Positions 25,985-41,649 of a stretch of DNA of 64,000 nt are shown piece after piece; positions within the stretch are counted from its first letter, which is position 1; the number at the start of each line of letters is the position of its first letter. The notes beneath the pieces were generated by a model. The model was not told where the DNA came from. It saw only the letters and a list, made by a program, of their open reading frames with translations, and did not search any database. Position numbers and translations under genes: made by a program. The DNA is taken from positions 97,049 to 161,048 of the forward strand of contig JABHLR010000005.1 in assembly GCA_018693315.1 (NCBI GenBank). The letters are read 5' to 3'. Origin of the DNA: an archaeon (GTDB lineage: Archaea > Nanobdellota > Nanobdellia > Pacearchaeales > GW2011-AR1).

Positions 25985-26055
25985 AAAAATTAGGCGGCCA
26001 GCTCATTGCTAGGAATCCCGGGGCAAAGATTCTTTCGCGATGGTGAGCTGGCCGC
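25985..26055 (-). terminator. stem-loop plus U-tract terminator at the left island edge
   Basis: 12-bp perfect stem GCGGCCAGCTCA/TGAGCTGGCCGC (25994-26005 and 26044-26055). On the minus strand it is followed by CCUAAUUUUUACC. Lies 19 nt after the stop of 26074..26547. Confidence 0.6.
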
Positions 26056-26073
26056 TGTTCGGTCGTTTGTCTG

Positions 26074-26547
26074 TCAAGATTCGCAGGACTGGTCGAAGAT
26101 TGAAATTTTTCCTTCGCCGCTATCGTCTTTCTTCGCGGAGTTGTCAGATTTCTGTGGATAAGGAGCGTCCATGATTTGGACATTTTCGTTGCCATCTTGC
26201 CAAGACCAGTTTCCCTCCTCGTTCGTGTCGTCACCGGCTTCATTCGGTTTTGGCGGAGATGCAAGTGCAGCGCCAAGCATAACTGCTAATCCGATCAGGA
26301 GCACTACTGCGCCGCAGGTAAATTCACCCCACGAAGCACTATTGTAGAGATAGTCAGGAACTTCTTTTTGGGAGTCAAAAGCATTTACTCCGTAAGCTGC
26401 TAAGAGAGCTCCTCCCAGTGTTAGAAAGATTCCTACAACCATCCCAATAGTACACAACATTTCTTTGTTTTTCCTTGTCATCGTCTTGCCTGCCTTTCTT
26501 GCTCGATCGCTAGTGGTTCGTTGTTTTATGTAATCCACCAAGACCAT
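26074..26547 (-). CDS. small membrane protein (2 TM), acidic C-terminus
   Basis: TM segments MLCTIGMVVGIFLTLGGALLAAY and CGAVVLLIGLAVMLGAALA. An alternative start at MTRKNKEM (26481) is preceded by GAAAGG. Confidence 0.6.
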   Translation of the reverse strand: MVLVDYIKQRTTSDRARKAGKTMTRKNKEMLCTIGMVVGIFLTLGGALLAAYGVNAFDSQKEVPDYLYNSASWGEFTCGAVVLLIGLAVMLGAALASPPKPNEAGDDTNEEGNWSWQDGNENVQIMDAPYPQKSDNSAKKDDSGEGKISIFDQSCES

Positions 26548-26661
26548 TGTGCGTTGATGGGTTGCTTTCTAATTGTAGAAGATGGCGGCCAACTCTTGTG
26601 AATGGAAGGGTTCGGGGGGGCTTCCGTCCTACAGAGGGGCTGACCGCCAATCTTCGTTAGT

Positions 26662-26817
26662 CTAATTCGATTTGGTTGTTTCGCTGCTTGACATTTCTAT
26701 GCTAACAGCTGGTTTCGTTTCGGCGAATTTTCGTCTTGCGTTTTGCCTGATACAATCTTCGACCAGGGCTATCGCGATACAGACTGCTACGAGTAGAAGA
26801 AGGTGTCGGATCTTCAT
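26662..26817 (-). CDS. small secreted/anchored peptide (51 aa)
   Basis: MKIRHLLLLVAVCIAIALVEDC signal-like N-terminus. AAAGGAG lies 8 nt upstream of the ATG. Overlaps the 3' part of the 26702..27001 frame. Confidence 0.4.
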   Translation of the reverse strand: MKIRHLLLLVAVCIAIALVEDCIRQNARRKFAETKPAVSIEMSSSETTKSN

Positions 26818-27001
26818 GTAGGATCTCCTTTGTCCCGGGTTGGCTTGCCGGAGTTTTTTCTTCTGTTTGCACTTCGGCTTTCGGCGGCGGCGGTTTGGCT
26901 GGTCTTGATGACCGGCATCCATCTTCTGCGACGAAAGTTACAGAGAGAATGGCGAAGGCAATAAGCGATGCGACTACGGTGTGGTTTTCCAAGTCCTTCA
27001 T
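26702..27001 (-). CDS. small secreted/lipoprotein-like protein, Pro/Lys-rich
   Basis: MKDLENHTVVASLIAFAILSVTFVAEDGC. AAGGAG lies 7 nt upstream of the ATG at 27001. The 3' end is uncertain because the frame runs through the next gene. Confidence 0.4.
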   Translation of the reverse strand: MKDLENHTVVASLIAFAILSVTFVAEDGCRSSRPAKPPPPKAEVQTEEKTPASQPGTKEILHEDPTPSSTRSSLYRDSPGRRLYQAKRKTKIRRNETSC

Positions 27002-27194
27002 GGACAACTCCTTTCGATCCATCTTGGCGACGAGCTACTTATTTTTCTTTGCTGCTTTTAGCCTTTTTCTGTGCGCGTCTCTTTTTTCTTGTTCTTTCTT
27101 CTTCTTGTTCTTCTTCATGCGACATTACCTCTTGCTAGTGTAACGAATGGGTTGATGTACTATGTTATCGAGTTTTCACTCGCTGTTTTCTTGT

Positions 27195-27238
27195 TAATAT
27201 AAGAACAAGGCCCCGTTGCGATTGTTCGCGCGGGGGCC
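27195..27238 (-). terminator. hairpin plus U-rich tract downstream of the PEP-CTERM gene
   Basis: Stem GGCCCC/GGGGCC (27209-27214 and 27233-27238), followed on the minus strand by UUGUUCUUAUAUU. Confidence 0.5.
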
Positions 27239-27301
27239 TCATCCCTTCGGCAGTCACCAGGTAGCGAGCGCTTCGTCAAGTTGTCCGCTGCTCACCGGTG
27301 A

Positions 27302-28204
27302 CTAGTTGCGGCGTCTACGTCTCAGTGCTGCCAGTCCGCCGAGTGCCAAGAGTGACATTGTGGCGGGTTCGGGTACGGCTGTGGGACTAAGCGGTATTGC
27401 GGAGTTAAACGCGGCGAGAAAATCCGGGTCGCTATCTACTAGCGTGAGGTCGAAATATGCGTTGATCTCCATGCCGTCCCAAACGGTCTTGTTGCTGTTT
27501 TCGTCCCAGACCGTGTGGGTATAGTCGTCTACCCACAGGCGTGCGTTGTCGATTTCGGCCAGGGCGAACCAGAAGTCGGCGTTGCCGCGGATATCACCAC
27601 TTATCGTGATTATTGGCTCTTCGTCGTATCCGCCGGGCCACGAGTAGGTTCTGTCGTGTTCCATTGAGCTGTCTGCGCTGAATCGGAGACCGGTGTCGAG
27701 CGGGTCGTTCCAGTTGAGACTACTGTGAGGGTACTCTGTCCAATCGTCGACGTTCTGGTCTACGAAAAGGAATCTGGCTGTGATTTCGACTTGGAATTGA
27801 CCGGTGTTGTTGCGACGCTCGATGTCTACCGAGATTCTTCTAGGCAGGATGTTGGTGTCCATCGCGCCCTGTTCGAGTTCGAATCGGAGCGAGCCGCTAC
27901 ATGACTGTTCGTTGACGTATGTCTTGATGTTGCCGAACTGGTCGATGTACTGCTCTGTTGTTTCCGGCCGGTTTGTCGCGGTCATGCCGATCTCCCATCC
28001 AGGTATAAAGTTAATTTCCTGGTAGATTCGAGCTTCCTCGAAGTAGTGAGGAATAGGTATCGGGCTGCCGGTTGATCCGCCGCCTCCACCGGTGCTGCCG
28101 GAGGGGATGGGGATGATCGGATCGGCCTGCGCGTTGTTTGTAATCGCGAGTGCGATGAGAGTGATGGCGATAGTGGATACGATAGTGCGATTGATTTTCA
28201 ACAT
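27302..28204 (-). CDS. PEP-CTERM-anchored secreted protein
   Basis: N-terminal signal peptide ...ITNNAQA/DP. C-terminus is VPEPATMSLLALGGLAALRRRRRN (PEP motif, TM helix, Arg cluster). Confidence 0.85.
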   Translation of the reverse strand: MLKINRTIVSTIAITLIALAITNNAQADPIIPIPSGSTGGGGGSTGSPIPIPHYFEEARIYQEINFIPGWEIGMTATNRPETTEQYIDQFGNIKTYVNEQSCSGSLRFELEQGAMDTNILPRRISVDIERRNNTGQFQVEITARFLFVDQNVDDWTEYPHSSLNWNDPLDTGLRFSADSSMEHDRTYSWPGGYDEEPIITISGDIRGNADFWFALAEIDNARLWVDDYTHTVWDENSNKTVWDGMEINAYFDLTLVDSDPDFLAAFNSAIPLSPTAVPEPATMSLLALGGLAALRRRRRN

Positions 28205-28448
28205 TTGTTTTCCCTTTCAGGGAGGCTTGATTGACTTTCGACCGTTTTGTTATTTATCGACTTACGTTGTTCGACGGGTTTCCCACCTTCTCCTTTGCGT
28301 TTTTCCTTTCACCTCGCGTGGTTTCGTAATAACAGGAGTAGCCGGCCCTTTCGGTTTCTTTTGCCTTCTAAGCGCCTGGTGAGTATGGCGGAAGGCATGG
28401 ACCGGCTACATCCTGCGCGTCTAGGCTCCTCTTGTCAGTTCGGCTCTG

Positions 28449-29030
28449 TTAGCCGTAGAGGGTTGAGACATCGCCATCGTCATCGCCATCATCGTTGTCT
28501 TCGCCGGACATGAAGTTCCATACAATGTTTATCCTGCCTCTGATGAACATCGGCATGCCGGTTACGGCCCACACTAAAGTGATCAGGATGTAGGCTGATA
28601 TCGATATGCTACTTCCGAAGAGGCTCCAGATTACGTCGACGAATACTGCCGGTCCCAAGAGTATTCCTGCGGCGATTAAGCAGACTACTCCGGAAAGGAC
28701 GACTGTGACGATTGTTGTAGTCGCGACGAAGATGTTCCCAGGGAGCGCCTTCCAGCCCTTTTTGACTGATGACGCGAATGGTCCGCAAAGCCAACTGGCT
28801 GCTCTTTTGCTCCAGGGCTTTCTTTCGTCTTCGGCTTCCGGCTGTTCGGCGGGCTCGGGCTCTTCTGCTCCGATCTGATCGGGAGGCGTGAGCTCGATCT
28901 CTTCTCTTGGCGGTTCGTCTGTCTGCGGCGCGGGGCTTGGTGCTACTATCTGTTCCGGCGCCTGTGTTTGTGCGGAATCCGGTGCTTGGTCGTCGCCCGG
29001 TGTTTGACCAGTATTGTCGTTGTCTGCCAA
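28449..29030 (-). CDS. membrane protein with acidic Pro-rich N-terminal region
   Basis: TTG start 6 nt after AAAGGAG. 3-4 TM segments in the C-terminal half. Ends with an Asp-rich tail. Confidence 0.6.
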   Translation of the reverse strand: MADNDNTGQTPGDDQAPDSAQTQAPEQIVAPSPAPQTDEPPREEIELTPPDQIGAEEPEPAEQPEAEDERKPWSKRAASWLCGPFASSVKKGWKALPGNIFVATTTIVTVVLSGVVCLIAAGILLGPAVFVDVIWSLFGSSISISAYILITLVWAVTGMPMFIRGRINIVWNFMSGEDNDDGDDDGDVSTLYG

Positions 29031-29450
29031 TATAGACTCCTTTCAGTCATATGTTTTGGCGCGTCTTTCCACCACATACAATGGCGGTTTGTTTCGTTTT
29101 TCGGCTAGTCGTCTTCTTCGTCGGGGCTATCTTCGCTTGTTCCGACGTTTCTGAGGCTTTCTTCTCTCCGTCTTTGTGCTTCCCTTCTTTCGATGCTGAA
29201 ATTTCCGTGTGCCATACACACCTCTGTTTCGTTAGGTTGATTCGGACGAGTTGAAGGAAGAGATCCGCTCGAGTAATGCGCCGAACGTCTGATGGGCGGC
29301 TCGAGCGGATACTCAACCTTGTCGATAGTTAATAGACTGGGATCCTGAAGCTTCGCCGTTAGCTTGTAACGTCTGGCAGAATCCCAGGTGAGACAGTATA
29401 CCGATAATTGACTGTGCGCGTGTTGTTGCGGCGGGCGAGTCGCTATACTG

Positions 29451-29894
29451 TTACTGCGTTTGTGTCTGCGGACTTTTTGTTGTGGCCAGCTTCCAGATTA
29501 AGCAGAGGAAGAGGACTACGCAGAAAGCCCCGGAGAGCGCGTAGCCGATTTTGAAGTCAGCTGCTCGTTCTCCCCAGTTTGCGATGACCTTTATCTGGCC
29601 GAAGCATTCCAATGCATAGTGTTTCAGGAAGGCTCCGACTTTCTCCACCGTGTTGCGCTTGAGAACGCCGGACATCTCAGCTGTGAAAAGCCTGGCGAGC
29701 ATAAACGTTGCGAACGGTGCGATTGCGGCTACGAACTTTCCTGCTAGACTTTCGGACGTTTGCCACAACATGTAGGCGGCGTAGAGTCCGAGCAAGGCGG
29801 CGCCAACAACTCTCCAATCTTTTGGGACCTCGATTGACATCATGACCAGGAAGATCAGGAGTAACGCATTGAATTTTATGTCTTTTCGCTGCAT
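29451..29894 (-). CDS. membrane protein (about 4 TM)
   Basis: GAAAGGAG 7 nt before the ATG. Hydrophobic helices throughout. Confidence 0.65.
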   Translation of the reverse strand: MQRKDIKFNALLLIFLVMMSIEVPKDWRVVGAALLGLYAAYMLWQTSESLAGKFVAAIAPFATFMLARLFTAEMSGVLKRNTVEKVGAFLKHYALECFGQIKVIANWGERAADFKIGYALSGAFCVVLFLCLIWKLATTKSPQTQTQ

Positions 29895-29907
29895 AATAAT
29901 CTCCTTT

Positions 29908-30162
29908 CTAGTCCATGATGTTTTCGACTCCGCCGGGCTTCTGTGTCTTCTCGGCGAAGGGGGTCATGAGAGTGGTTTCGCTGCCTTTAGCACTTTTGTG
30001 CCGGAGGTCGCCGAGGGAAGTCCTGATTCTTCCGAACCGAAGACTTGTTTTGTATTCGGCGTCCCTGACATCGACGCATCCACTTGTCATCATCGTCATT
30101 GCGGATACAAGCACCAGTACGATTACGGTTACGATCTGAGCTGTTCTTCTGTGAGCGTTCAT
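29908..30162 (-). CDS. small lipoprotein (84 aa)
   Basis: MNAHRRTAQIVTVIVLVLVSAMTMMTSGC has a lipobox-like TSGC. AGGAG upstream of the ATG at 30162. Confidence 0.6.
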   Translation of the reverse strand: MNAHRRTAQIVTVIVLVLVSAMTMMTSGCVDVRDAEYKTSLRFGRIRTSLGDLRHKSAKGSETTLMTPFAEKTQKPGGVENIMD

Positions 30163-30429
30163 CGCTTTTTCTCCTGCACCCAAGTGCATTTGGAAAAGCA
30201 TCCGTGCTTTGGTTTGTCAATCCATTTTGAACAAAAGCTTACCCAGCGTCTTGTTCTTGAAGATCGAGAGCTCCTTCCGGTTACAATCTCTCAACCCTTT
30301 CGGATTTCGGCGTGTGTGACTTCGCGATTTCTCCTTTCGCTGTGTCGTTTATCGTGAACACCTTGTGGTGTGTTAGTGTTTGTCTAAGGTTTGCCGTGAT
30401 AAGCTCTCGTGGAGCGTATCAGATCAGAC

Positions 30430-30492
30430 CCTAAAACAACGCCGACCGCGAGATCGTTTGTGGCTTTTATCTTACAAGGATCTCGCGGTCGG
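30430..30492 (-). terminator. rho-independent-type terminator
   Basis: 14-bp perfect stem CCGACCGCGAGATC/GATCTCGCGGTCGG (30442-30455 and 30479-30492), followed on the minus strand by CGUUGUUUUAGGG. Lies just downstream of 30510..31370. Confidence 0.7.
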
Positions 30493-30509
30493 GCTGGCTG
30501 GCTTTGATG

Positions 30510-31370
30510 CTAACGGATTTCTGGCACGTTGAGCGGCCGCTTGCTTGCCGTCCATTTTTCTGAAATCAGCTTGATGGCTGCTTCAACGTCAGGATCTCCC
30601 TTGGTCAATTCTAGGGCTTCTCGCAGCTTTGGTATCATCGGCTTGGCTTGTGCGCCGATTATTCCGAGGATCTGTGCGGCGTTTGCGGTATCCTTCCCTC
30701 CCTGTTCCAGTTTTTTGCTAAGTACTGGGAAGGTGAATGTTCCGAACTGCTCTAGCATCCGGGTGGCCTTTTCGCTTCTCTTCCCGGTTTTTTCAGAATA
30801 CGCCTCGAACAACTGTTCGGTGAGGCGGTCCTTGTGCCAGTAGGTTACCTCTCCTTCATCATTCTTAACGCCCGAGATTGCGAAGTCGCCTTGCATTAGC
30901 CCTATCAACTTTTCTCTGGTCTCGTTGATTATGTCTCTAGGGGGGCCGGCGACGTCTCGCTTGTTGGAGAGAACGCACGTTATTCTGGAGCAGTTTTCTT
31001 TTTCGACTTTGGCAATTAGCTCAATGCCGGGTTCGTAGGTGAGCCTTAGACTGACGCAGTCGGGTACTGCCTTGAGGAGTTCCGCACTGGCGTTCCTCAT
31101 GCTCTCGATTGCAACCTTCTCTCGTTCTTCATCTGTTTGTGTCGCTTTGTTGACCTTTTGACTTTCGGGCGTCAGGTGGTCGTAGATGAAGAAGTTGATA
31201 GATTGACCCAGAAATCCCCAGGCTGTGGCACCCGAGTAGACTCCAATGAGAATCAGCAGAATTTCTGGGAACCACAGTCTTTTGCGCTTGACCATCTTAC
31301 GACCCGCGATGATAAAACTCGCTATGCATACTACGCACAGCCCGATACCGACTAATTCTAGAAACGACAT
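30510..31370 (-). CDS. N-terminally anchored protein with C-terminal HEAT-like repeats
   Basis: AAAGGAG 6 nt before the ATG at 31370. 2 N-terminal TM segments. C-terminus AAQILGIIGAQAKPMIPKLREALELTKGDPDVEAAIKLI resembles HEAT/PBS-lyase repeats. Confidence 0.65.
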   Translation of the reverse strand: MSFLELVGIGLCVVCIASFIIAGRKMVKRKRLWFPEILLILIGVYSGATAWGFLGQSINFFIYDHLTPESQKVNKATQTDEEREKVAIESMRNASAELLKAVPDCVSLRLTYEPGIELIAKVEKENCSRITCVLSNKRDVAGPPRDIINETREKLIGLMQGDFAISGVKNDEGEVTYWHKDRLTEQLFEAYSEKTGKRSEKATRMLEQFGTFTFPVLSKKLEQGGKDTANAAQILGIIGAQAKPMIPKLREALELTKGDPDVEAAIKLISEKWTASKRPLNVPEIR

Positions 31371-31393
31371 GTGAGTCTCCTTTTCTTCTCTGG

Positions 31394-31411
31394 GCACCCT
31401 TTGCTAGGTGC
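31394..31411 (-). promoter_or_regulatory. conserved hairpin box GCACC-N8-GGTGC in a 5' leader (copy 1)
   Basis: gcaccctttgctaggtgc is identical to 31936..31953. It sits about 24 nt upstream of the start of 30510..31370. Confidence 0.5.
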
Positions 31412-31539
31412 TTAATAATAGGCATACTGCGATATTGCAGTAAGTTTTTGTAAAATAGGCCCGACCGCGGAAGGGGTTGTTCGTCCATCTTTAGTAAGAC
31501 AAAGGGGATTTTCCACGGCCAGGCAGTTTCGGCGTTGGA

Positions 31540-31917: not shown

Positions 31918-31935
31918 CTTGCGGCTCCTTTCTAT

Positions 31936-31953
31936 GCACCCTTTGCTAGGTGC
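31936..31953 (-). promoter_or_regulatory. conserved hairpin box GCACC-N8-GGTGC in a 5' leader (copy 2)
   Basis: Identical 18-mer to 31394..31411, about 19 nt upstream of the start of 31540..31917. Confidence 0.5.
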
Positions 31954-34454: not shown

Positions 34455-34455
34455 G

Positions 34456-35281: not shown

Positions 35282-35404
35282 GGTTGGCCAGGCGCTCCTG
35301 TGGGGGGAGACAGGATGGAGGCGGGGGGGACCTCTGCCCGACCGGGTAGTTCATCATTGCAGGTGATGCTATGACTAGCTACCGTTTGATTTCGACGGGT
35401 TGGA

Positions 35405-35644: not shown

Positions 35645-35645
35645 G

Positions 35646-35987: not shown

Positions 35988-36255
35988 TGTGAGCTCCTTT
36001 CATTTAGCCTGAGCACATTGCGGCGAAGGATAGTAGTGTGAAAAACAATACTTTTCTTCTGTGCTTTGCTTCTTCTGATGTACCGAACATTTGTTTCTCC
36101 TCCGGCTGTGAGCGTTAGGGGTTTTAACGGTTACTGAATATTACCTCTCTTGGAGGGCATATCCTGGAATCGTTGTTAATAGTAGACCCCGGGGCACTGG
36201 CGGGTTCGGACAGTGGGAAAAGTGCGCCCGGGGTCTCTGGTTCGTGTTGCGACTG

Positions 36256-36444
36256 TTAGGCTTCGTCCGGCTTTTTCTTCCCTGTTCCCTTGAGTGCTTC
36301 GCTACATACCTTTCTGCACTCTGGACATTCCATATTATCTCTAACCAGATTATGGAATTCGTTGAGATCTCTCTCTTTCGCTGCCTGTAGCTGTTTGGCC
36401 GTCAGGTGCGAATGCTCTGCCTTTGCTTCTTGCGTCTGTTGCAT
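36256..36444 (-). CDS. small protein with a CxxC motif (62 aa)
   Basis: MQQTQEAKAEH...MECPECRKVCSE. GGAG upstream. A GACCCCGGG/CCCGGGGTC hairpin lies downstream. Confidence 0.5.
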   Translation of the reverse strand: MQQTQEAKAEHSHLTAKQLQAAKERDLNEFHNLVRDNMECPECRKVCSEALKGTGKKKPDEA

Positions 36445-36616
36445 CTTTACGCTCCATCTGAGGTTTTCGAATTAACGACTTGTTGCTAGGATCCTTTCGC
36501 ATAAAGCTTCGCACTTTTCGCAGCCAATTATTGACATGGCTACTACGAGAAGGGTCCCGTCTTTGTGGAAGGCGATAGCATCGTCCTCCGTGAGGCATTC
36601 GTGATCAAGCAATGGT

Positions 36617-36964
36617 CTAGATCTCCTTATCTAGGGGTTGTGGCGATTCGGCTACGCGGTTCGTTGTTGCGCTCGCCGAGCTGGTATATCTTTTTGCGTC
36701 ATAGGACAGATATGATTTTCCTGCCCAGATGACTGCTACGAGCGCTAGGGTTGATATTACTCCTAAGGCTGTGTACTGGACGCGCTCTCTGCCCAGGACG
36801 ATTACGTGGCGGAAACATGCGACTGCGAGTGCGGCCATAATGAGACCCAGTGTGACGATTGCCGCGAATTGTACAGATCCGCAAGGGCCCGATATACAGA
36901 GCACAAAGAAGAAAAGGAATACGGCAATCCCGGCGAGTACTGCGGTTGTTTTGAAGCTATTCAT
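36617..36964 (-). CDS. membrane protein (3-4 TM)
   Basis: GAAAGGAG 6 nt before the ATG. The 28-nt translation-initiation region is nearly identical to that of 40948..41382. Confidence 0.65.
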   Translation of the reverse strand: MNSFKTTAVLAGIAVFLFFFVLCISGPCGSVQFAAIVTLGLIMAALAVACFRHVIVLGRERVQYTALGVISTLALVAVIWAGKSYLSYDAKRYTSSASATTNRVAESPQPLDKEI

Positions 36965-37011
36965 GGCATTCTCCTTTCATGAGGTTGCCAATTTTAGTGA
37001 TTGTAGCACAT

Positions 37012-37055
37012 GGGTACCCCAACGGTGAGTTGTTGAGGTACCCATCTGCGGTGCG
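37012..37055 (-). repeat. partial copy (distal hairpin only) of the ~140-bp leader element
   Basis: gggtaccccaacggtgagttgttgaggtacccatctgcggtgcg. 12-bp stem with 1 mismatch. Shares the GTTGAGGTACCCATCTGCGGT core with copies A-E. Confidence 0.7.
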
Positions 37056-37071
37056 ACCAGGACTAGTCAGG

Positions 37072-37863
37072 TTACTGGAGACTAACGGACCTTTCCGTAA
37101 CCTTGTCGATTTCTTCGACTATCTGCTCTAGAGACTTGATTGTCCTGCGAGGCATTCTCATTGCCTTCAGGCTTTTCTCTAAAACTTTTACTTCTTTTAG
37201 AAGCTCGATATCTTCTTTTTCGTTAACCAGAGCTTCTTCGGCAGCTTCGAGCAGGTTGACCTTGAGGTTTCTGCCGTTCTTGAGGATTTTTAGCGTCTCC
37301 TCGTCGGTGGTCTTTGCTATCTTGATGTTGTGCTTCTTCAGGTCTTCTTTTTGAGACTTAATGATAGCTTCTCGTTCTTTGACTACTGCTTCGCAGCTTT
37401 CGATTATTTCGTCGTAGATGGAAGTTGTATCGTTTTTGTCGATTTTCGGCTGGGTTGTTGCCGGGGGCCTGGTGCCTTTTATTGTTTTCCCGGTAAGTTC
37501 CATCGGAACGACGATTTCCATGATGGGTTCTTGAAACGACTTGGGGTCGGGGTTGTCGCTGACGTCGAAGATTCGGATTGTTTTCCCTCTTAGCTCTTTG
37601 TAGTGACCGAAGGTGTCCAGTGGCATGACCTTGAAGTACCAGTCTTTTACTTCTCCTTTGCCGTCGTTGCTCCATGCTTCGATCATTAAGGTGGATTTTC
37701 CGAAGTTTACGATTCGTCCTCCGTGACCGTAATTGAGGCTGGTGAGGGTGATGCCGATTTGGTCATCTCTGAAAACTTCCTGGTCTGCGCTGTCAGTTCT
37801 GTTGCATCCGGCGAACGCTGCTACGAGGCTCACACACACGATAAGTGTTGTTAGATTCTTCAT
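37072..37863 (-). CDS. lipoprotein with C-terminal coiled-coil region (263 aa)
   Basis: MKNLTTLIVCVSLVAAFAGC (lipobox FAGC). GAAAGGAC 6 nt before the ATG at 37863. K/E-rich helical C-terminus. Confidence 0.7.
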   Translation of the reverse strand: MKNLTTLIVCVSLVAAFAGCNRTDSADQEVFRDDQIGITLTSLNYGHGGRIVNFGKSTLMIEAWSNDGKGEVKDWYFKVMPLDTFGHYKELRGKTIRIFDVSDNPDPKSFQEPIMEIVVPMELTGKTIKGTRPPATTQPKIDKNDTTSIYDEIIESCEAVVKEREAIIKSQKEDLKKHNIKIAKTTDEETLKILKNGRNLKVNLLEAAEEALVNEKEDIELLKEVKVLEKSLKAMRMPRRTIKSLEQIVEEIDKVTERSVSLQ

Positions 37864-38010
37864 GGGTTTGTCCTTTCTGGACATTAAATATAGAGAGGGC
37901 CCGGGGCACCTAGCGGGAGGCTAGTATGAATGTGCGTCTGAGCCATCTCTGTTTGGGTGAGTTAATTCTTTCACGAGAGAGAATGTTTTGAAAACTGCTG
38001 GGGTTGTGGT

Positions 38011-39096
38011 TTAGATGTCGGTCATGATACATTCGGCGGGGGCCAAGAGCATGTATGAGAACTCATAATCCATGCTATCGGAAGTGTTGTCAAGGACTAC
38101 GAACGATTTCCCGTTGATTTCGACCGTGTTGCCGAATTCTACTTCTTTGTCTATTCTTTCTGGAAGCATAGGAATCTTTTTTGCTGTTGCGCAGTCAATA
38201 TGCTTTGCATATTTGAACACCGGAATTTCGAACACTTTGGGAACGTCGATTACCAGTGAGACTCCTGTGTTATGCGGCGGGGCGAGCTCGGGTTCCTCTT
38301 CTTGTGCTGCTCTGACGATTGAGGAGAGCGGGACAGGGCCGTTTTTTACGGGTGCAGCGGTAAAGCATTCGGTGAAAGCGGCGGCCAGTGCCTTTCCTTC
38401 ATCTGTTTCCAGATTGGCAAAACAGAGCGCCAAGCGGAGAAAGAAGTCTTTTACCGTTGCAATTAGAGGCCAATTACGATATAACATGATATTGTCCTTT
38501 GCGAAAGATTGTCTGTTTTTTGTGGAAGTGCCGGCGCTGAATACTGCCATTATGATGCGCTCTAATGCTTGACAGATGGAATCTGTATCTTCATCAGAGA
38601 CACTCAGTAAGGCATCAATCGCGTTCATCCCACTCGTGTCTATTGGAATTTGAATGAATTTTACAAGTTCTTCGCCGCCTTCGCTTTTGAAGTATTCTCT
38701 TGTTAGTTCTTCGTCATCGCATGCACATGTGGCATAAACTTCGCCATTCTTTGTTTCCAGTATTGCAACGTTGATCGTTTCGCATTTCTGAGGTTCTTGT
38801 TGATTGTTTGGTTCGTTACGTTTCGGAACTTCCTGTTCCACATCTTCCTGTTTGCTGGTGTCGTTCATGACATCCGTTGCCCTTGTCACAGTTCTACCTC
38901 TCTCTTGTGTTGTGCCTAAGAGAAAGGTGACATTCTGTCCTTGGAAGAGCTCAATATTATCATGAGTGGATCCTACCTCAACTCTCTTGTCATTGAGTTC
39001 TTCCTGCCTAGAGTCTTTGATTCTAACTTTCCAGACCCATTTACCGCCTTTTTTGTCTTTGCCTAGTACGAAGCCTTTTATTCTTGCCTGTTCCAT
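38011..39096 (-). CDS. hypothetical protein (361 aa), largest island ORF
   Basis: Preceded by leader copy A with AGGAG 8 nt before the ATG. No motif recognised. Confidence 0.65.
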   Translation of the reverse strand: MEQARIKGFVLGKDKKGGKWVWKVRIKDSRQEELNDKRVEVGSTHDNIELFQGQNVTFLLGTTQERGRTVTRATDVMNDTSKQEDVEQEVPKRNEPNNQQEPQKCETINVAILETKNGEVYATCACDDEELTREYFKSEGGEELVKFIQIPIDTSGMNAIDALLSVSDEDTDSICQALERIIMAVFSAGTSTKNRQSFAKDNIMLYRNWPLIATVKDFFLRLALCFANLETDEGKALAAAFTECFTAAPVKNGPVPLSSIVRAAQEEEPELAPPHNTGVSLVIDVPKVFEIPVFKYAKHIDCATAKKIPMLPERIDKEVEFGNTVEINGKSFVVLDNTSDSMDYEFSYMLLAPAECIMTDI

Positions 39097-39238
39097 TGCC
39101 TTTTCTCCTGTCTTGGGATCCTACCTGGATCCGGCCTTCCATGTGCTTTTCTCCGGACTTTGGACCGGTACATCCAAACATATGGACGTAGTGCATTAAT
39201 ACCCCAACTATGAGAGCTGTTGAGGTACCCATCTGCGG
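39097..39238 (-). repeat. ~140-bp hairpin-rich leader element, copy A
   Basis: Spans from the start codon of 38011..39096 to the stop codon of 39239..39526. Contains the GGATCC-N5-GGATCC, ACGTCCA/TGGATGT and TACCTCAAC/GTTGGGGTA stems (minus strand). Confidence 0.9.
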
Positions 39239-39526
39239 TTATTCTATGTCTATCTCTTGGGCGACTTTTCGTGTTCCACATTTGAAGAGAATTCTTGCAT
39301 CATCTTCACTGAACATCTTAATAAGCTCTTGCTTGTCTCCTGCTCCTTCGACGAATAGGAGACCTGTTTCTTCGTTTTTCCCGTCTGTGCCGAATGCTAT
39401 TTCCACGCCGGCAGGGTTGATGAAGCGGATACTACGGGCTTCACCAGGATTATCGTTCTCTTCTATTCTGATGCAATCCGCTAGGCGCATTTGTGCTGTT
39501 TCGACTGTCAGTTCGCTCGTTTTCAT
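39239..39526 (-). CDS. hypothetical protein (95 aa), paralogue of 40515..40796
   Basis: Start set at MKTSELTVE (GAAGGA upstream). The longer ORF-track N-terminus only translates the repeat. Core ADCIRIEE..NPGEARSIRFINPAGVEIAFGTDG is shared with the paralogue. Confidence 0.65.
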   Translation of the reverse strand: MKTSELTVETAQMRLADCIRIEENDNPGEARSIRFINPAGVEIAFGTDGKNEETGLLFVEGAGDKQELIKMFSEDDARILFKCGTRKVAQEIDIE

Positions 39527-39668
39527 GATTAAATCCTTCATTTTGGAATCCTTCCTGGATTCGGCCTTCCATGTGTCTTTTATCCGGACTTTGGACCGGT
39601 ACATCCAAACATATGGACGTAGTGCATTAATACCCCAACTATGAGTTGTTGAGGTACCCATCTGCGGT
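39527..39668 (-). repeat. ~140-bp leader element, copy B
   Basis: Same element. The proximal stem carries a compensatory pair change (GAATCC/GGATTC instead of GGATCC/GGATCC). Confidence 0.9.
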
Positions 39669-39783
39669 GCGGCGAATGAGGTTGCAGATCTAAAGGAGTT
39701 GGTTTCTTTGAGATACAATGCGGACCGAGCTTCCTTAGCAAGCGTTACTCACTATTGTAGCTCGGTTCTAAGAACTCATGAAC

Positions 39784-39939
39784 CTAGTAGCTGCACCGGT
39801 TCATTGCAATTCCTAGATCATGTGTGAATGATTTTGTTGATTTGTAGTAAAGTATGACTGCTGCAATCGCAATGCCAGTCAAACCAAAAATTGCTACAAA
39901 TACCAAACCATTCATAACCGGCGTAACCCATTTAATCAT
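39784..39939 (-). CDS. small single-TM protein (51 aa)
   Basis: Hand translation: MIKWVTPVMNGLVFVAIFGLTGIAIAAVILYYKSTKSFTHDLGIAMNRCSY. CAGGAG lies 6 nt upstream, inside leader copy C. An ACCGAGCT/AGCTCGGT hairpin follows the stop. Confidence 0.5.
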   Translation of the reverse strand: MIKWVTPVMNGLVFVAIFGLTGIAIAAVILYYKSTKSFTHDLGIAMNRCSY

Positions 39940-40079
39940 TTTTGACTCCTGTCTTGGGATCCTTCCTGGATCCAGCCTTCCATGTGCTTTTCTCCGGACT
40001 GTGGACCGGTATAGCTACACAAGTAACTATAGTGCATTAATACCCCAACTATGAGAGCTGTTGAGGTACCCATCTGCGA
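39940..40079 (-). repeat. ~140-bp leader element, copy C
   Basis: Same flanks. The central stem is replaced by TATAGTTA/TAGCTATA, still base-paired (one G.U on the minus strand). Confidence 0.9.
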
Positions 40080-40367
40080 TTATGCTGCTTCTGACATTAG
40101 CGAATGAAATGCGAATTCGTTGGACATCTTTCCAATAAGTCTTTTAACGACCAAGGCTTCTTCGCGTTCGAGTTCGCCTGTCATTTTGTCGATGAGTCTT
40201 CGAACGGCTAAGGCGTCTTTGTAGAAAGAGAAGGTGATTTGTATAAGACCATCGACTTCTTCTACTCTGTGAATCTTACTTCTGATTTCTTCGTTAATCT
40301 TATCAATTGTTCCTTCTGTGCAGAACAGTTTGATTCCGACTGATACGGTGTTTGTGCTAATTAACAT
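40080..40367 (-). CDS. hypothetical protein (95 aa)
   Basis: AAAGGAAAG upstream of the ATG. Has an internal repeat ALAVRRLIDKMTGE / ALVVKRLIGKMSNE. Confidence 0.6.
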   Translation of the reverse strand: MLISTNTVSVGIKLFCTEGTIDKINEEIRSKIHRVEEVDGLIQITFSFYKDALAVRRLIDKMTGELEREEALVVKRLIGKMSNEFAFHSLMSEAA

Positions 40368-40510
40368 GATACTTTCCTTTTTCTTTGGATCCTACCTGGA
40401 TCCAGCCTTCCATGTGCCTTTTATCCGGACTGTGGACCGGTACAATTACACAAGTAATCGTAGTGCATTAATACCCCAATAAGAGTCTATTGGGATATCC
40501 ATCTGCGGTT
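40368..40510 (-). repeat. ~140-bp leader element, copy D
   Basis: Central stem ACGATTAC/GTAATTGT and distal stem CCCAATA/TATTGGG both differ in sequence from the other copies but stay complementary. Confidence 0.9.
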
Positions 40511-40514
40511 ATAT

Positions 40515-40796
40515 TTAGTCTACTTCTTGGACGACTTTTTTCGTTCCATATCCGAAGAGAATCCTGGCCTCATCACAATGGAAATCCCCGACGAGCTCTT
40601 CTTTCTCTCCTGTGCCTTGGACGAACAAGAGACCTGTGTCTTTGTCTTCCCCATCTGTGCCGAATGCTATTTCCACTCCGGCAGGGTTGATGAAGCGGAT
40701 ACTACGGGCTTCACCAGGATTACCATCTTCTTCTATTCTGATGCAATCTGCGAGGAGTTTTTGTGCTGTTTCTAGTGTTAGTTCTTTCGTTTTCAT
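40515..40796 (-). CDS. hypothetical protein (93 aa), paralogue of 39239..39526
   Basis: MKTKELTLETAQKLLADCIRIEEDGNPGEARSIRFINPAGVEIAFGTDG... The ATG at 40796 is preferred over the TTG at 40802. Confidence 0.65.
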   Translation of the reverse strand: MKTKELTLETAQKLLADCIRIEEDGNPGEARSIRFINPAGVEIAFGTDGEDKDTGLLFVQGTGEKEELVGDFHCDEARILFGYGTKKVVQEVD

Positions 40797-40941
40797 AATC
40801 AAATCTTTCTTTTTGGGATCCTACCTGGATCCAGCCTTCCATGTGCCTTTTATCCGGACTGTGGACCGGTACAACCAAACATATGGTTGTAGTGCATTAA
40901 TACCCCAACTATGAGAGCTGTTGAGGTACCCATCTGCGGTT
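40797..40941 (-). repeat. ~140-bp leader element, copy E
   Basis: Central stem ACAACCA/TGGTTGT is perfect and differs from copy A by a compensated pair. Confidence 0.9.
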
Positions 40942-40947
40942 TGGCGA

Positions 40948-41382
40948 TTAGGACTCGGTGGATACGTCATCGGGCTTTTCGGCGGGGGGGAAGCAGGTCG
41001 CACCAATTAAGGCTTCCATCGTATTGTCTCTGAACAGGGCTTTTACGATGACACTAGCGAGCGCTGTTGCTGCGTTCGGAGTGGGAAGGCAGTTGCTTGC
41101 CACGAGTGCTTCGGGCACGATTTCGCCGATGCTTTCGAGCATTTCCTTATCGGAGGGTACTGATGCCTCTCGTCCTTTTTTCGGAGAGGTGGATGCAAGT
41201 GCTGAGACAAGGTGCGAACTCCAGCCCGTGAGCATTTCTGCCAAGAAAGGCGCGGCTTTTTCTGCAATGGCCAGGGATATGTCTTCATTGAAGGGGTTGT
41301 CTCCGTCCGCGTTTTCTTCCTTGATTCCTTGTTGCAGCGATACGATAGTGAAGCTTGTCAGAATTTTTCGATCGTTTGTCAT
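40948..41382 (-). CDS. hypothetical protein (144 aa), first gene of the island
   Basis: GAAAGGAG 6 nt before the ATG. No motif recognised. Confidence 0.6.
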   Translation of the reverse strand: MTNDRKILTSFTIVSLQQGIKEENADGDNPFNEDISLAIAEKAAPFLAEMLTGWSSHLVSALASTSPKKGREASVPSDKEMLESIGEIVPEALVASNCLPTPNAATALASVIVKALFRDNTMEALIGATCFPPAEKPDDVSTES

Positions 41383-41649
41383 GGCGTTCTCCTTTCAAGA
41401 GGTTGCCGGGTTTTTGTCAATAGAACACCATATATGGGTATTCCGGTTTGTTTTTGTTAATAAGACAGTAGCGGAGCTATAGAATTTTTGTTTAATGGAA
41501 ACCTATTCCGTGAAAACTTGTGGTTCTCATAGGGTATTCCTTTGTATTTGTATATCCACGATGTGTTTTTGGTGTGTCAATAAAATTCGGCGTGATGTCG
41601 AATTTGTTGTCTATGTATTCTGTGGATAAAGGGTTATTTGTGAATGTGA

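What the first reader, a model, noticed from the sequence alone, without database searches (positions are those of the whole stretch)
25991..41481. 15.5-kb block with bacterial gene signals inside an archaeal chromosome
The flanks encode archaeal informational genes: aIF2-gamma, aIF5B, S6e, L10e, L35Ae and an archaeal-type GluRS. Between ppsA and a HerA-like ATPase the sequence becomes clearly GC-richer by eye. About 25 small ORFs follow, all on the minus strand. Nearly every start is preceded at 4-9 nt by the same GAAAGGAG box. Several products carry bacterial-type lipoboxes (FAGC, LAGC, TSGC) or Sec signals, and one ends in a canonical PEP-CTERM tail. Genes end in stem-loop plus U-tract terminators, and there is a bacterial-style tRNA-like gene. 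Host-side genes show none of these signals. The left edge coincides with a terminator whose U-tract merges into host AT-rich DNA. A weak AT-rich direct repeat (AATTTTTGTTT, about 25968-25990 and 41482-41500) brackets the block, but it could be chance. No integrase, transposase, or viral or conjugation hallmark is recognisable. Nearly all products are unrecognisable small envelope proteins. The block is therefore either a very recent inter-domain transfer, a novel mobile element, or a chimeric assembly.
Basis: partly seen in the sequence, partly recalled or inferred. Interest (0 to 1): 0.85.

Follow-up and report, generated by a model that had tools for sequence, protein, structure and literature searches.

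The report
Ribozyme-punctuated variable gene island in archaeon
The GC-rich block is real, not an assembly error: it is one version of a hypervariable gene island found downstream of the same ATPase gene in many tiny Pacearchaeota archaea, apparently read as one long RNA cut by twister ribozymes and a tRNA-like element, with cargo partly taken from bacteria.

Summary
Window 26.0-41.4 kb differs sharply from its archaeal flanks: GC3 0.53 vs 0.39, and tetranucleotide r to host falls from 0.9 to 0.3-0.5. It carries 24 small minus-strand genes. Twenty have an AAGGAG-type ribosome-binding box, against 0 of 33 host genes. Both junctions recur at 99.98-100% identity in more than 10 independent assemblies, so it is not a chimera.

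It is also not a one-off insertion. In related Pacearchaeota/Woesearchaeota MAGs the same HerA-like-ATPase-to-ppsA interval holds 0.3-15.8 kb of unrelated, often GC-rich, same-strand small genes. These follow a conserved about 230-nt leader and commonly end in a hairpin plus T-tract.

A homologous twister, a hammerhead and many coding-strand tRNA-like elements occur in sister islands.

Cargo mixes DPANN-specific families with bacterial-type genes. These include a PEP-CTERM protein here, and CsrA, FliS and a porin-like protein in sister islands. One island CsrA is about 80% nucleotide-identical to Planctomycetota csrA.

No integrase, attC sites, virus genes or defence genes were found.

Best reading: a clade-wide flexible-island operon with RNA punctuation. 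Its biological role is unknown.

The parts
41650..43614 (-). HerA/CedD-like P-loop ATPase (654 aa) with C-terminal wHTH-like tail. Conserved anchor gene immediately upstream of the island. The 144-aa coiled-coil partner lies at 43617-44051.
   Evidence: Pfam DUF87/Zot/ResIII. NCBIfam CedD DNA-translocating ATPase 1.9e-15 and HerA, both below cut-off. PDB HerA 4d2i, weak. 48-77% identical orthologues in 80 Pacearchaeota/Woesearchaeota/Nanoarchaeota MAGs.
41416..41649 (-). Conserved leader of about 230 nt between the HerA stop and the first cargo gene. It has several hairpins, ending in the palindrome GAATACC-N7-GGTGTTC (41423-41443) around an ATATAT core. Candidate island promoter/operator or structured 5' leader.
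   Evidence: Alignable in at least 18 species although the downstream genes are unrelated. The (G/A)AATACC-N8-11-GGTATT(T/C) palindrome lies 200-260 nt after the HerA stop in about 25 of 71 relatives. 88% identity to L105 315-348. No Rfam family. RNAalifold gave no consensus on the gappy alignment.
25984..41415 (-). Variable cargo block: 24 SD-led small genes. Coordinates: 40948-41382, 40515-40802, 40080-40367, 39784-39939, 39239-39526, 38011-39096, 37072-37884, 36617-36964, 36256-36444, 35646-35987, 35425-35628, 34791-35168, 34456-34686, 34148-34354, 33882-34127, 32378-32911, 31540-31917, 30510-31370, 29908-30162, 29451-29894, 28449-29030, 27302-28204, 26702-27001, 26074-26547.
   Evidence: No TATA-like box before any of the 24 genes, so transcription is probably polycistronic.
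39153..39237 (-). Twister-P5 ribozyme 1 (38.5 bits, above GA 37.6). It begins at the stop codon of gene 39239-39526 and ends 56 nt before the ATG at 39096.
39584..39666 (-). Twister-P5 ribozyme 2 (39.0 bits, above GA).
39994..40078 (-). Twister-P5 ribozyme 3 (32.7 bits, E 0.0015). It starts 1 nt after the stop of gene 40080-40367.
40425..40507 (-). Twister-P5 ribozyme 4 (31.4 bits).
40854..40938 (-). Twister-P5 ribozyme 5 (32.4 bits). It follows the stop of the first cargo gene.
37003..37055 (-). Degenerate twister remnant. It keeps the P2 5' strand and the P1 hairpin but has lost the UAAUGC core and P4.
39097..39152 (-). Conserved post-twister leader, repeated after each twister. It is GGA-rich with the hairpin GGAUCC-AGGWA-GGAUCC, followed by SD and start. 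It resembles a CsrA-type GGA-in-loop site, but no csrA gene is present in this island.
   Evidence: Resemblance to CsrA sites rests on established knowledge and was not tested.
35207..35281 (-). tRNA-like element, anticodon UCA, with C at position 33 and a 2-nt bulge in the T stem. Its D and T arms match those shared by the sister-island tRNA-like elements and differ from the host tRNA-Val. It ends 38 nt before the ATG at 35168. Probably a substrate for RNase P and tRNase Z.
   Evidence: Sister islands: 20 tRNA-like genes on the coding strand vs 3 opposite, often 36-67 nt before an SD-led start.
34386..34454 (-). Copy 1 of a 69-nt repeat (96% identical to the copy at 34722-34790). It forms a long imperfect hairpin directly after a stop codon. 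RNA element of unknown function.
   Evidence: z = -1.9 and -3.7. No Rfam hit.
34722..34790 (-). Copy 2 of the 69-nt hairpin repeat.
27302..28204 (-). Secreted protein with a canonical PEP-CTERM tail (VPEPATMSLLALGGLAALRRRRRN).
   Evidence: Pfam PF07589 26.1 bits. NCBIfam TIGR02595 25.2 bits, cut-off 16. Only 3 homologues in 5.8 billion proteins. One (P0002/L105) is shown to lie in a sister island behind HerA. The other two lie on short same-style contigs without host flanks.
38011..39096 (-). 361-aa protein, a fusion of two families of unknown function (N 1-195, C 204-360) that elsewhere are separate, adjacent small genes.
   Evidence: 142 HMMER hits. No Pfam or PDB sequence hit. The C-domain model has pLDDT 89.6 and no PDB fold match. 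Homologue P0145 is the first gene after HerA in L155.
25984..26054 (-). Terminal hairpin (CGGCCAGCUC...GAGCUGGCCG) plus a short T-run, just upstream of the conserved ppsA promoter repeats (25878-25971). Probable end of the island transcript.
   Evidence: Clearer hairpin plus T-tract at the same place in L104, L044, L031, L028, L039 and L038.
23297..25855 (-). ppsA (PEP synthase), the conserved downstream anchor.

Best explanation
The block is the local version of a clade-wide flexible genomic island in Pacearchaeota/Woesearchaeota (DPANN archaea). It occupies a fixed slot between a conserved HerA/CedD-like ATPase gene and, in the closer relatives, ppsA. A conserved leader, probably carrying the promoter/operator, is followed by interchangeable cargo. 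The cargo consists of small genes, mostly for secreted, lipid-anchored or membrane proteins, all on one strand. None of the genes has an archaeal TATA box of its own, and each has a strong AAGGAG-type Shine-Dalgarno box. The block ends at a hairpin plus T-run before the ppsA promoter. I infer that it is transcribed as one long RNA. That RNA would then be cut into single-gene mRNAs by self-cleaving twister ribozymes placed exactly at stop codons, and by a tRNA-like element processed by RNase P and tRNase Z. Cleavage would give each cistron defined, structured ends and independent stability and translation. The cargo turns over quickly and is mosaic. It mixes DPANN-specific families with genes captured from bacteria, which explains the foreign GC content and the bacterial flavour. 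Shown: the anatomy, the conservation of the slot and leader, the ribozyme folds with covariation, and the bacterial origin of csrA in a sister island. Inferred: polycistronic transcription, in vivo cleavage, the mechanism of cargo exchange (possibly homologous recombination through the conserved flanks), and a role in cell-surface or partner-cell interaction.
For: Real locus: both junctions are reproduced in more than 10 independent assemblies at 99.98-100% identity. Slot: HerA-to-ppsA synteny with a gap of 0.33 kb (L036), 0.76, 1.5, 2-4.8, 8.2, 8.8 and 15.8 kb. Many relatives have GC-elevated stretches of at least 10 kb straight after HerA, for example L042, L047, L090, L029 and L077. AAGGAG is enriched on the coding strand in those gaps. 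No protein homology was found between this island and the HerA-ppsA gaps of the relatives held at that point. Homologues turned up later in sister islands L105 and L155. The leader is conserved in at least 18 species. L105 starts with the HerA C-terminus, shares the leader and carries a 55% PEP-CTERM homologue. L108 is 75-82% nucleotide-identical in three pieces, with the middle of the PEP-CTERM gene swapped. Expression logic: SD in 20 of 24 island genes vs 0 of 33 host genes; TATA-like box in 0 of 24 vs 10 of 33. Ribozymes: five twisters fit a 29-pair model that includes both pseudoknots, with 100% of cells paired and 5 pairs showing compensatory change, while slid controls give 23-39%. A homologous twister (43.9 bits) lies 11 nt after the first island gene of L155, with visible compensatory changes in P1, P3 and P4. 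A hammerhead-II at 35.6 bits lies right after a stop codon in L105. tRNA-like elements downstream of HerA: 20 on the coding strand vs 3 opposite, compared with 22/18 upstream. Cargo origin: CsrA x3, FliS, FHA, MutS_V and a TorF-like porin in sister islands. L043 csrA is about 80% nucleotide-identical to csrA in Planctomycetota-type genome contexts. The 361-aa protein's families occur in DPANN contigs. Precedent: tandem hammerheads flanking single genes in prophages, proposed to process long transcripts (PMC3088659); twister and hammerhead proposed for polycistronic mRNA processing (PMC6765202).
Against: There are no transcript data, so polycistronic transcription and cleavage are inferences. 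Three of the five twisters score below Rfam's gathering threshold (31-33 bits), because of the inserted P3 hairpin and the long P1 loop. RNAalifold found no consensus structure for the leader, and its palindrome varies little, so it may be a DNA site rather than an RNA structure. All assemblies of this species are clonal, so the within-population variability typical of flexible islands was not seen. Some sister islands (L041, L039, L028) have host-like GC, so high GC is not universal. The exchange mechanism is unknown. The function of nearly all products is unknown. PEP-CTERM and OMP-like proteins have no obvious use in a cell without an exosortase or an outer membrane.
Confidence: 0.62

Rival explanations
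1. Integrated mobile element or degraded provirus of the archaeon that targets the HerA-ppsA intergenic site. The different sister islands would be different elements or remnants at one attachment hot-spot.
For: Foreign composition. One-strand arrays of small ORFans. tRNA-like genes and self-cleaving ribozymes are typical of phage and prophage regions. The palindrome at the leader/cargo boundary could be a recombination site. Content is variable at one site.
Against: No integrase, transposase, replication, capsid, portal or packaging gene by Pfam, PHROGs or NCBIfam, either here or in 115 ORFs of sister islands. No flanking direct repeats beyond a chance AT-rich 11-mer. No match for the 361-aa protein in 50,697 phage or 72,556 plasmid records. 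The one IMG/VR scan, with the PEP-CTERM alignment, matched only the generic C-terminal tail in two contigs. Cargo genes lack their own promoters and sit behind a host-conserved leader.
Confidence: 0.13
2. A single recent transfer of one contiguous bacterial DNA segment into this archaeon.
For: Bacterial-type signals (SD box, lipoboxes, PEP-CTERM, bacterial-looking tRNA-like gene). GC 10-12 points above the host. Clear bacteria-to-island transfer of csrA in a sister island.
Against: The slot, the leader and the island architecture are shared by many species. The island's largest gene and its twisters have homologues in other DPANN islands. The only homologues of the PEP-CTERM protein are one in a sister island behind HerA (L105) and two on short contigs of the same style, none on a contig with recognisable bacterial context. 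csrA similarity to bacteria is limited to the ORF plus about 13 nt, which points to gene-sized rather than block-sized capture.
Confidence: 0.07
3. Integron-like cassette array (a CALIN), as reported for some archaea.
For: Unidirectional, promoterless small ORFan cassettes, each with its own SD. About 140-nt conserved elements between several genes. A conserved platform upstream.
Against: No RYYYAAC...GTTRRRY attC core pair on either strand (0 found, 1.2 expected by chance). No inverted repeats of attC type. The 140-nt repeats are twister ribozymes. No tyrosine recombinase among the neighbours.
Confidence: 0.03
4. Assembly chimera joining archaeal and bacterial contigs.
For: Abrupt composition change. 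One NCBI MAG carrying this contig is labelled 'Candidatus Jacksonbacteria bacterium'.
Against: Both junctions are identical in many samples and assemblers. The same architecture occurs in dozens of other species. The bacterial label is a binning or naming error, because the contig carries archaeal ribosomal proteins.
Confidence: 0.01

Closest known systems
Flexible genomic islands / hypervariable regions at fixed positions between conserved genes (for example O-antigen and surface-glycan 'replacement' islands, SAR11 HVR2, Haloquadratum surface-protein islands). From my own knowledge.
   Same: Same chromosomal slot in related genomes with unrelated content. Atypical composition. Enrichment for envelope and secreted proteins. 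No obligatory mobility genes. Probable exchange through conserved flanks.
   Different: A conserved about 230-nt leader 'platform'. Strictly one-strand, promoterless, SD-led small cistrons in a host that otherwise uses leaderless mRNAs. Ribozyme and tRNA-like punctuation. Cargo from another domain. No strain-level variation was seen here.
Tandem self-cleaving ribozymes flanking single genes in bacterial prophages/ICEs (Perreault et al. 2011, PMC3088659; Weinberg et al. 2019, PMC6765202).
   Same: Several copies of one ribozyme class bracket individual small genes of unknown function on one long transcription unit. The proposed role is cutting a polycistronic RNA.
   Different: Here the setting is an archaeal chromosome with no phage genes. 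The ribozyme is twister type P5 with an extra P3 hairpin, starts exactly at stop codons, and is used interchangeably with tRNA-like elements. As far as I recall, twister has been reported from Bacteria and Eukarya and not from Archaea. The papers I read did not confirm or contradict this.
tRNA punctuation of polycistronic transcripts (animal mitochondria; tRNA genes inside bacterial and phage operons). From my own knowledge.
   Same: tRNA-shaped elements between cistrons on the coding strand, positioned so that RNase P/Z cleavage would release mRNAs.
   Different: The elements look foreign to the host tRNA set. Several have odd anticodons (UCA, UUA, A34 types, 6-nt loops), so many are probably not decoding tRNAs.
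Integron cassette arrays, including archaeal integrons (from my own knowledge; not retrieved in the paper search).
   Same: Platform plus an array of promoterless, same-orientation small ORFan cassettes. A route for cross-domain gene flow.
   Different: No attC sites and no IntI. The inter-cassette elements are RNA-processing motifs.
Agrobacterium T-DNA / leading regions of conjugative elements (from my own knowledge).
   Same: Genes carrying the expression or sorting signals of a different kind of cell, kept next to a DNA-translocase-like ATPase gene. One-strand small genes.
   Different: No borders, relaxase, oriT or secretion channel were identified. The ATPase is a conserved chromosomal gene. 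This is purely an analogy.

Membership tests
Twister ribozyme, type P5 (Rfam RF02684) | Covariance-model score at or above the gathering threshold (37.6 bits) | tested here: met
   39.0 and 38.5 bits for two copies. 32.7, 32.4 and 31.4 bits for three more (E 0.0015-0.0031). The homologue in L155 scores 43.9 bits.
Twister ribozyme, type P5 (Rfam RF02684) | P1/P2/P4 helices, both pseudoknots (T1, T2) and the conserved UAAUGC cleavage core are maintained | tested here: met
   29-pair model, 100% of cells paired, 5 pairs with compensatory change, slid controls 23-39%. T2 is AC/GU here instead of the consensus GC/GC. The L155 copy shows compensatory changes in P1, P3 and P4 by eye.
Twister ribozyme, type P5 (Rfam RF02684) | Site-specific self-cleavage | not testable with these tools
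   Needs in vitro transcription or 5'-OH end mapping.
tRNA (decoding) | Cloverleaf recognised by tRNA models | tested here: met
   Rfam RF00005 57.5 bits. ARAGORN calls anticodon TCA.
tRNA (decoding) | Canonical U33, regular 5-bp T stem, matching codon usage (UGA read as sense) | tested here: not met
   C at position 33 and a 2-nt bulge in the T stem (alignment). TGA is not used in frame in island genes. I therefore call it tRNA-like.
Integron / CALIN cassette array | attC sites (RYYYAAC ... GTTRRRY imperfect palindromes) after the cassettes | tested here: not met
   0 candidates on either strand, 1.2 expected. No inverted repeats. A full attC covariance model was not available.
Integron / CALIN cassette array | IntI tyrosine recombinase next to the array | tested here: not met
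   No recombinase among called genes within about 10 kb on either side. The rest of the genome was not searched.
Prophage / integrated archaeal virus | Hallmark genes (capsid, portal, terminase, integrase, replication) | tested here: not met
   PHROGs: no hit for 20 proteins apart from one weak hit of unknown function. Pfam none. The 361-aa protein is absent from phage records.
Integrative genomic island with att repeats | Flanking direct repeats and/or insertion in a tRNA gene | tested here: not met
   Only an 11-nt AT-rich similarity, not conserved in L105. The tRNA-like gene lies mid-island, not at an edge.
Flexible (replacement-type) genomic island | Same position between syntenic core genes in related genomes, with unrelated content | tested here: met
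Flexible (replacement-type) genomic island | Variation among co-occurring strains / under-recruitment in metagenomes | tested here: inconclusive
   All assemblies of this species are identical. Read recruitment is not possible with these tools.
PEP-CTERM / exosortase sorting system | C-terminal PEP motif, TM helix and basic tail | tested here: met
   PF07589 26.1 bits (cut-off 20.7). TIGR02595 25.2 bits (cut-off 16).
PEP-CTERM / exosortase sorting system | Exosortase or archaeosortase encoded in the same genome | not testable with these tools
   Only the window and about 10-kb flanks are readable. None is present in the window.
Bacterial-type lipoproteins | Lipobox [LVI][ASTVI][GAS]C after an h-region | tested here: met
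   FAGC (37072-37884), LAGC (34791-35168), TSGC (29908-30162). The modifying enzymes in the host were not testable.
CsrA-regulated leader | csrA gene present and GGA motifs in hairpin loops or the SD | tested here: inconclusive
   GGA-in-loop hairpins follow each twister. No csrA in this island. csrA is present in sister islands L043, L104 and L155, and on the island-style contig L106, whose host flanks are not known.

The most novel reading that the evidence does not exclude
The island is an inter-domain interaction cassette. On this reading, an episymbiotic Pacearchaeote keeps, behind a conserved leader and next to a HerA/CedD-like DNA-translocating ATPase, a fast-changing set of genes. These genes carry bacterial translation and sorting signals: an extended SD, lipoboxes and PEP-CTERM here, plus OMP-like barrels, CsrA and FliS in sister islands. 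They would act on, or be expressed in, a diderm bacterial partner (Planctomycetota/Phycisphaerae are the nearest donors). The ribozyme- and tRNA-like-cut mRNAs, or the DNA itself, would be the delivered unit, making this a functional analogue of T-DNA or of the leading-region genes of conjugative elements. It would also imply a bacterial host for a DPANN archaeon.
Probability: 0.07. Interest if true: 0.95.

Novelty: new variant of a known kind. Interest (0 to 1): 0.72.

Why it matters
Four reasons, if the reading is correct. (1) As far as I recall, twister has been reported only from Bacteria and Eukarya, so these may be its first archaeal examples. They sit in a context (exactly at stop codons, in tandem, interchangeable with tRNA-like elements and a hammerhead) that makes the long-proposed role of small ribozymes in cutting polycistronic mRNAs directly testable. 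(2) It defines a conserved 'platform plus exchangeable cargo' locus shared by many uncultured DPANN archaea. Such a locus is a handle on how these reduced genomes acquire and express accessory genes. (3) It documents recent, gene-sized bacteria-to-archaeon transfer (csrA from Planctomycetota) into one defined slot, and points to candidate partner organisms for Pacearchaeota, whose hosts are unknown. (4) It supplies several protein families with confidently predicted but unmatched folds, and an unannotated conserved leader. On the practical side, it warns that such islands cause binning and naming errors: this contig is filed under a CPR bacterium in NCBI.

Tried and rejected
- Stop-codon recoding with a UGA suppressor tRNA: rejected. 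Reading TGA as sense only extends ORFs into the 5' UTRs, because the SD box is often TGAAAGGAG. TGA-stop depletion is not significant against the host. Sister islands use TGA stops freely.
- Integron: no attC-like sites.
- Defence island: PADLOC hits only the HerA-like ATPase, weakly.
- Phage or plasmid origin of the 361-aa protein: no match. PHROGs gave nothing.
- Sigma-70 promoters: 19 found against 15.2 +/- 4 expected, so no signal.
- Intrinsic terminators after each gene: not supported on the coding strand.
- The metagenome scan with the PEP-CTERM alignment mostly hit generic PEP-CTERM tails and was uninformative. The IMG/VR scan gave two tail-only hits.
- Back-translated pattern scans with the C-domain alignment could not be run, because no stretch was conserved enough.
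- RNAalifold on the leader alignment gave no structure, because the alignment was too gappy.
- No 16S rRNA gene is present in any fetched locus, so the host anti-SD tail could not be read.
- Fold search of the C-domain model: no PDB match (best E 0.6, TM below 0.25). The sequence-profile hit to the RIG-I CTD (E 0.005) is judged spurious.
- Literature searches for DPANN with CsrA, Pacearchaeota with integrons, and hypervariable islands found nothing relevant.

Full report

Yes, in nearly all respects.
- GC rises from 0.38-0.42 in the flanks to 0.47-0.54 between 26 and 38 kb, then tapers to 0.45 at 41 kb.
- Tetranucleotide correlation with the rest of the window falls from about 0.9 to 0.30-0.57 inside the block. 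GC3 is 0.53 vs 0.39. Median protein length is 114 vs 349 aa.
- I count 24 plausible genes, all on the minus strand.
- The exact octamer GAAAGGAG occurs 16 times in the window (2.8 expected), and 12 of these lie on the minus strand inside the block.
- An AGGAG/AAGGA/GGAGG box lies 4-18 nt before 20 of 24 island starts and before 0 of 33 host starts (p = 9e-12).
- Host genes instead show TATA-like boxes 25-30 nt before the ATG, the leaderless archaeal style, with an occasional GGTGAT box inside operons.
- No island gene has such a TATA box (0 of 24 vs 10 of 33, p = 0.003).
- Three lipoboxes are present. 15-16 products have N-terminal hydrophobic signals or TM segments. There is one bona fide PEP-CTERM tail.
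- The flanks encode aIF2-gamma, aIF5B, S6e, class Ic GluRS, L10e and L35Ae.

Two sub-claims fail.
- There is no excess of hairpin-plus-T terminators on the coding strand: 2 of 32 sites, and 32 against 23.6 +/- 5.1 expected overall.
- The AT-rich edge repeat looks like chance.

Apparent avoidance of TGA stops (1 of 24) is not significant against host genes (6 of 33), and TGA is not read as sense.

**2. Not a chimera**

Exact-protein look-ups place the island's 361-aa gene and the HerA-like gene together on many contigs, and the island's last gene together with ppsA on many others. These come from different samples and assemblers: JGI, metaSPAdes NODE_, MEGAHIT k141_, Logan and an NCBI MAG. All are 99.98-100% identical to the window across both junctions. 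NCBI holds the proteins as 'hypothetical' in one MAG called 'archaeon' and in another mislabelled 'Candidatus Jacksonbacteria bacterium'.

**3. Not a one-off: a clade-wide slot**

The HerA-like ATPase has 48-77% identical orthologues in 80 Pacearchaeota/Woesearchaeota/Nanoarchaeota MAGs. In the closer relatives the order p144, HerA, ppsA (same strand) is conserved, but the HerA-ppsA gap varies.
- Gap sizes are 0.33 kb (L036), 0.76, 1.5, 2-4.8, 8.2 and 8.8 kb, and 15.8 kb here.
- Many gaps are GC-richer than their flanks and packed with AAGGAG on the coding strand.
- In other relatives (L042, L047, L090, L029, L077) a stretch 10-17 GC points above the host starts right after HerA and runs for at least 10 kb.
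- The relatives' HerA-ppsA gaps tested first share no protein homology with this island. Homologues appeared later in sister islands L105 and L155.
- In several relatives (L104, L044, L031, L028, L039, L038) the gap ends in a clear hairpin plus T-tract just before the conserved ppsA promoter repeats.

The roughly 230 nt after the HerA stop are alignable in at least 18 species, with recurring hairpins. They end in the palindrome (G/A)AATACC-N8-11-GGTATT(T/C), which is found 200-260 nt after the stop in about 25 of 71 relatives. Conservation stops about 30 nt before the first cargo SD.

The metagenome contig L105 starts with a HerA C-terminus, has the same leader (88% over 34 nt) and carries a different island that includes a 55% PEP-CTERM homologue. 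L108 is 75-82% nucleotide-identical to three pieces of the window's left end but has a swapped central part of the PEP-CTERM gene, so the islands are mosaic.

**4.

The '140-bp repeat' is a set of five type-P5 twister ribozymes: 39153-39237, 39584-39666, 39994-40078, 40425-40507 and 40854-40938, all on the gene strand.
- Two score above Rfam's gathering threshold. Three score 31-33 bits.
- Each begins at or within a few nt of the preceding stop codon. Each is followed by a conserved GGA-rich hairpin, an SD and the next start.
- A hand-built model has P1, P2, an inserted P3 hairpin, P4 and both pseudoknots. It pairs in 100% of cells, with five compensatory pairs. Slid controls give 23-39%.
- A sixth copy (37003-37055) is degenerate.
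- A homologous twister (43.9 bits) with the same P3 insert sits 11 nt after the first island gene of L155, the HerA-downstream island of another DPANN archaeon. It shows compensatory changes in P1, P3 and P4, and that island also has two tRNA-like elements.
- L105 has a type II hammerhead (35.6 bits, GA 37) right after a stop codon.

The window's 'tRNA' (35207-35281) has anticodon UCA, C33 and a bulged T stem, and ends 38 nt before the next ATG. In the relatives, 20 tRNA(-like) genes lie downstream of HerA on the coding strand against 3 on the other strand; upstream of HerA the split is 22/18. At least ten of them are followed by an SD-led start within 36-67 nt. They share D and T arms unlike the host tRNA-Val, and several have odd anticodons: UUA, A34 types and 6-nt loops.

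Two further repeated hairpins (the 69-nt repeat at 34386-34454 and 34722-34790, and a short hairpin before two SDs) have no Rfam match.

Tandem hammerheads bracketing single genes are known from bacterial prophages and were proposed to cut long transcripts (PMC3088659; PMC6765202).

**5. Cargo**

Pfam, PHROGs, NCBIfam and PADLOC recognise almost nothing in this island beyond PEP-CTERM.

The PEP-CTERM protein has only three homologues in 5.8 billion proteins. All three lie on contigs built in the same style as this island, and one (P0002/L105) is demonstrably a sister island behind HerA.

The 361-aa protein had no k-mer-seeded hit, but exhaustive HMMER finds 142 relatives.
- It is a fusion of two families that elsewhere are separate genes of 150-190 aa.
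- One homologue is the first gene after the HerA-like gene in L155. Another lies in a DPANN contig with archaeal ribosomal proteins.
- The C-domain folds with pLDDT 89.6 and has no PDB match.

Among 115 ORFs from sister islands, Pfam finds CsrA (3 times), FHA (2 times), FliS, MutS_V, Band_7, VKOR and a few others, and no mobility or virion genes. A TorF-like porin is suggested in L105.

CsrA from the L043 island is 81-86% identical to proteins labelled Planctomycetes/Phycisphaerales. Those proteins sit in ordinary bacterial contexts at GC 0.62-0.65. Nucleotide identity is about 80% and is limited to the ORF plus about 13 nt.

So the cargo mixes DPANN-specific families with gene-sized captures from bacteria.

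**6. Mechanism proposed**

- *Shown:* a conserved slot and leader; promoterless SD-led cistrons on one strand; ribozymes and tRNA-like elements placed between cistrons; a terminal hairpin plus T-run.
- *Inferred:* one long transcript starts in the leader (the palindrome surrounds an ATATAT core). Twisters cleave at U^A of UAAUGC. This would leave the upstream mRNA with a 3' P1 hairpin and a 2',3'-cyclic phosphate, and the downstream mRNA with a 5'-OH, structured P3/P4 and a GGA hairpin ahead of its SD. RNase P and tRNase Z do the same job at the tRNA-like element.
- The strong SD is needed because internal cistrons in a mainly leaderless host cannot use 5'-end-dependent initiation.
- Cargo exchange probably uses the conserved flanks. 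Nothing indicates site-specific recombination.
- The biological role is unknown. The bias toward envelope proteins and the fast turnover suggest surface or partner interaction.

**7. Rivals**

- A mobile element or provirus remains possible (about 0.13), but it lacks every hallmark.
- A single block transfer from a bacterium is unlikely (about 0.07).
- Integron about 0.03.
- Chimera about 0.01.
- The most novel reading not excluded is an inter-domain effector or transfer cassette aimed at a diderm bacterial partner. The supporting points are the bacterial sorting and regulatory genes, the CedD/HerA-like neighbour and the Planctomycetota donors. I give it about 0.07.

**8. Verdict**

This is a real and reproducible feature. 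It is best filed as a new variant of known kinds: a flexible genomic island combined with ribozyme-punctuated operons, in an unexpected host and with unexpected parts. Interest 0.72.

Noticed in passing
window 55285-61515 (+): Type I restriction-modification genes: HsdR-like (ResIII, HSDR_N, EcoEI_R_C; 915 aa) and HsdM (N6_Mtase, HsdM_N; 484 aa), with two ORFs between them that may include the specificity subunit.
   Followed up: no
window 41416-41649 (-); L105 125-380 and at least 16 other loci: Unannotated conserved leader of about 230 nt after the HerA stop, with several covarying-looking hairpins and two AAATACC/GGTATTT stems. No Rfam family matches it. It could be a new structured RNA or a protein-binding promoter region. 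RNAalifold failed on the raw alignment.
   Followed up: partly
window 34386-34454 and 34722-34790 (-): Two 96%-identical 69-nt elements directly after stop codons that fold into a long imperfect hairpin (z = -1.9 and -3.7). No Rfam match. Possibly another processing or stability element.
   Followed up: partly
NCBI records for this contig; L029: The contig with archaeal ribosomal proteins is filed in one NCBI MAG as 'Candidatus Jacksonbacteria bacterium' (proteins MBT6757xxx). A sister locus (L029) is filed as 'Desulfobulbaceae bacterium'. These are probable binning or naming errors, perhaps encouraged by the bacterial-like island.
   Followed up: no
L044 12139-12462; L043 9816-10103; L104 14264-14461; L155 13556-13807; L106 3299-3544: Bacterial flagellar and post-transcriptional regulators inside archaeal islands, and on the island-style contig L106: FliS (Pfam E 1.4e-31) and CsrA (five examples in all: three in the Pfam scan, one each on L155 and L156). 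Neither has a known role in archaea.
   Followed up: partly
L044 12720-13504; L104 12236-12305; L031 15972-16048; L095 20297-20371: Island tRNA-like genes with unusual anticodons: UUA (ochre), two with 6-nt anticodon loops, and the A34 types Val-AAC, Thr-AGT and Arg-ACG. As far as I know, A34 types are not used by archaea.
   Followed up: partly
window 38011-38487 (-) = residues 204-361 of the 361-aa protein: Member of a family of about 150-aa proteins (motifs NW..IC, AFPECFS, GPVPLSVL, LAPAECI). The AlphaFold model is confident (pLDDT 89.6, pTM 0.85), with no structural neighbour in the PDB.
   Followed up: yes
L036 11905-12237; L092, L076, L041, L040 near ppsA: Relatives carry a small antisense gene just upstream of the ppsA promoter. 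By eye it looks like a winged-helix protein; this was not tested. It is absent from the window.
   Followed up: no
window 23297-25855 (-): ppsA carries a lysine/glutamate/proline-rich low-complexity C-terminal extension of about 90 aa. Two near-identical 29-nt repeats (25878-25906, 25943-25971) lie in its promoter region and are conserved in relatives.
   Followed up: no
whole window: Cumulative GC skew rises almost monotonically across all 64 kb, and the + strand is G- and T-rich whatever the gene orientation, so the window probably lies within one replichore. The island's skews resemble those of neighbouring minus-strand host genes despite its different GC.
   Followed up: no
window island SD boxes, e.g. 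41389-41397, 36971-36979, 35994-36002: The SD octamer is often preceded by T, giving TGAAAGGAG, so a stop codon is built into the box. This creates the false impression of upstream ORF extensions when TGA is read as sense.
   Followed up: partly
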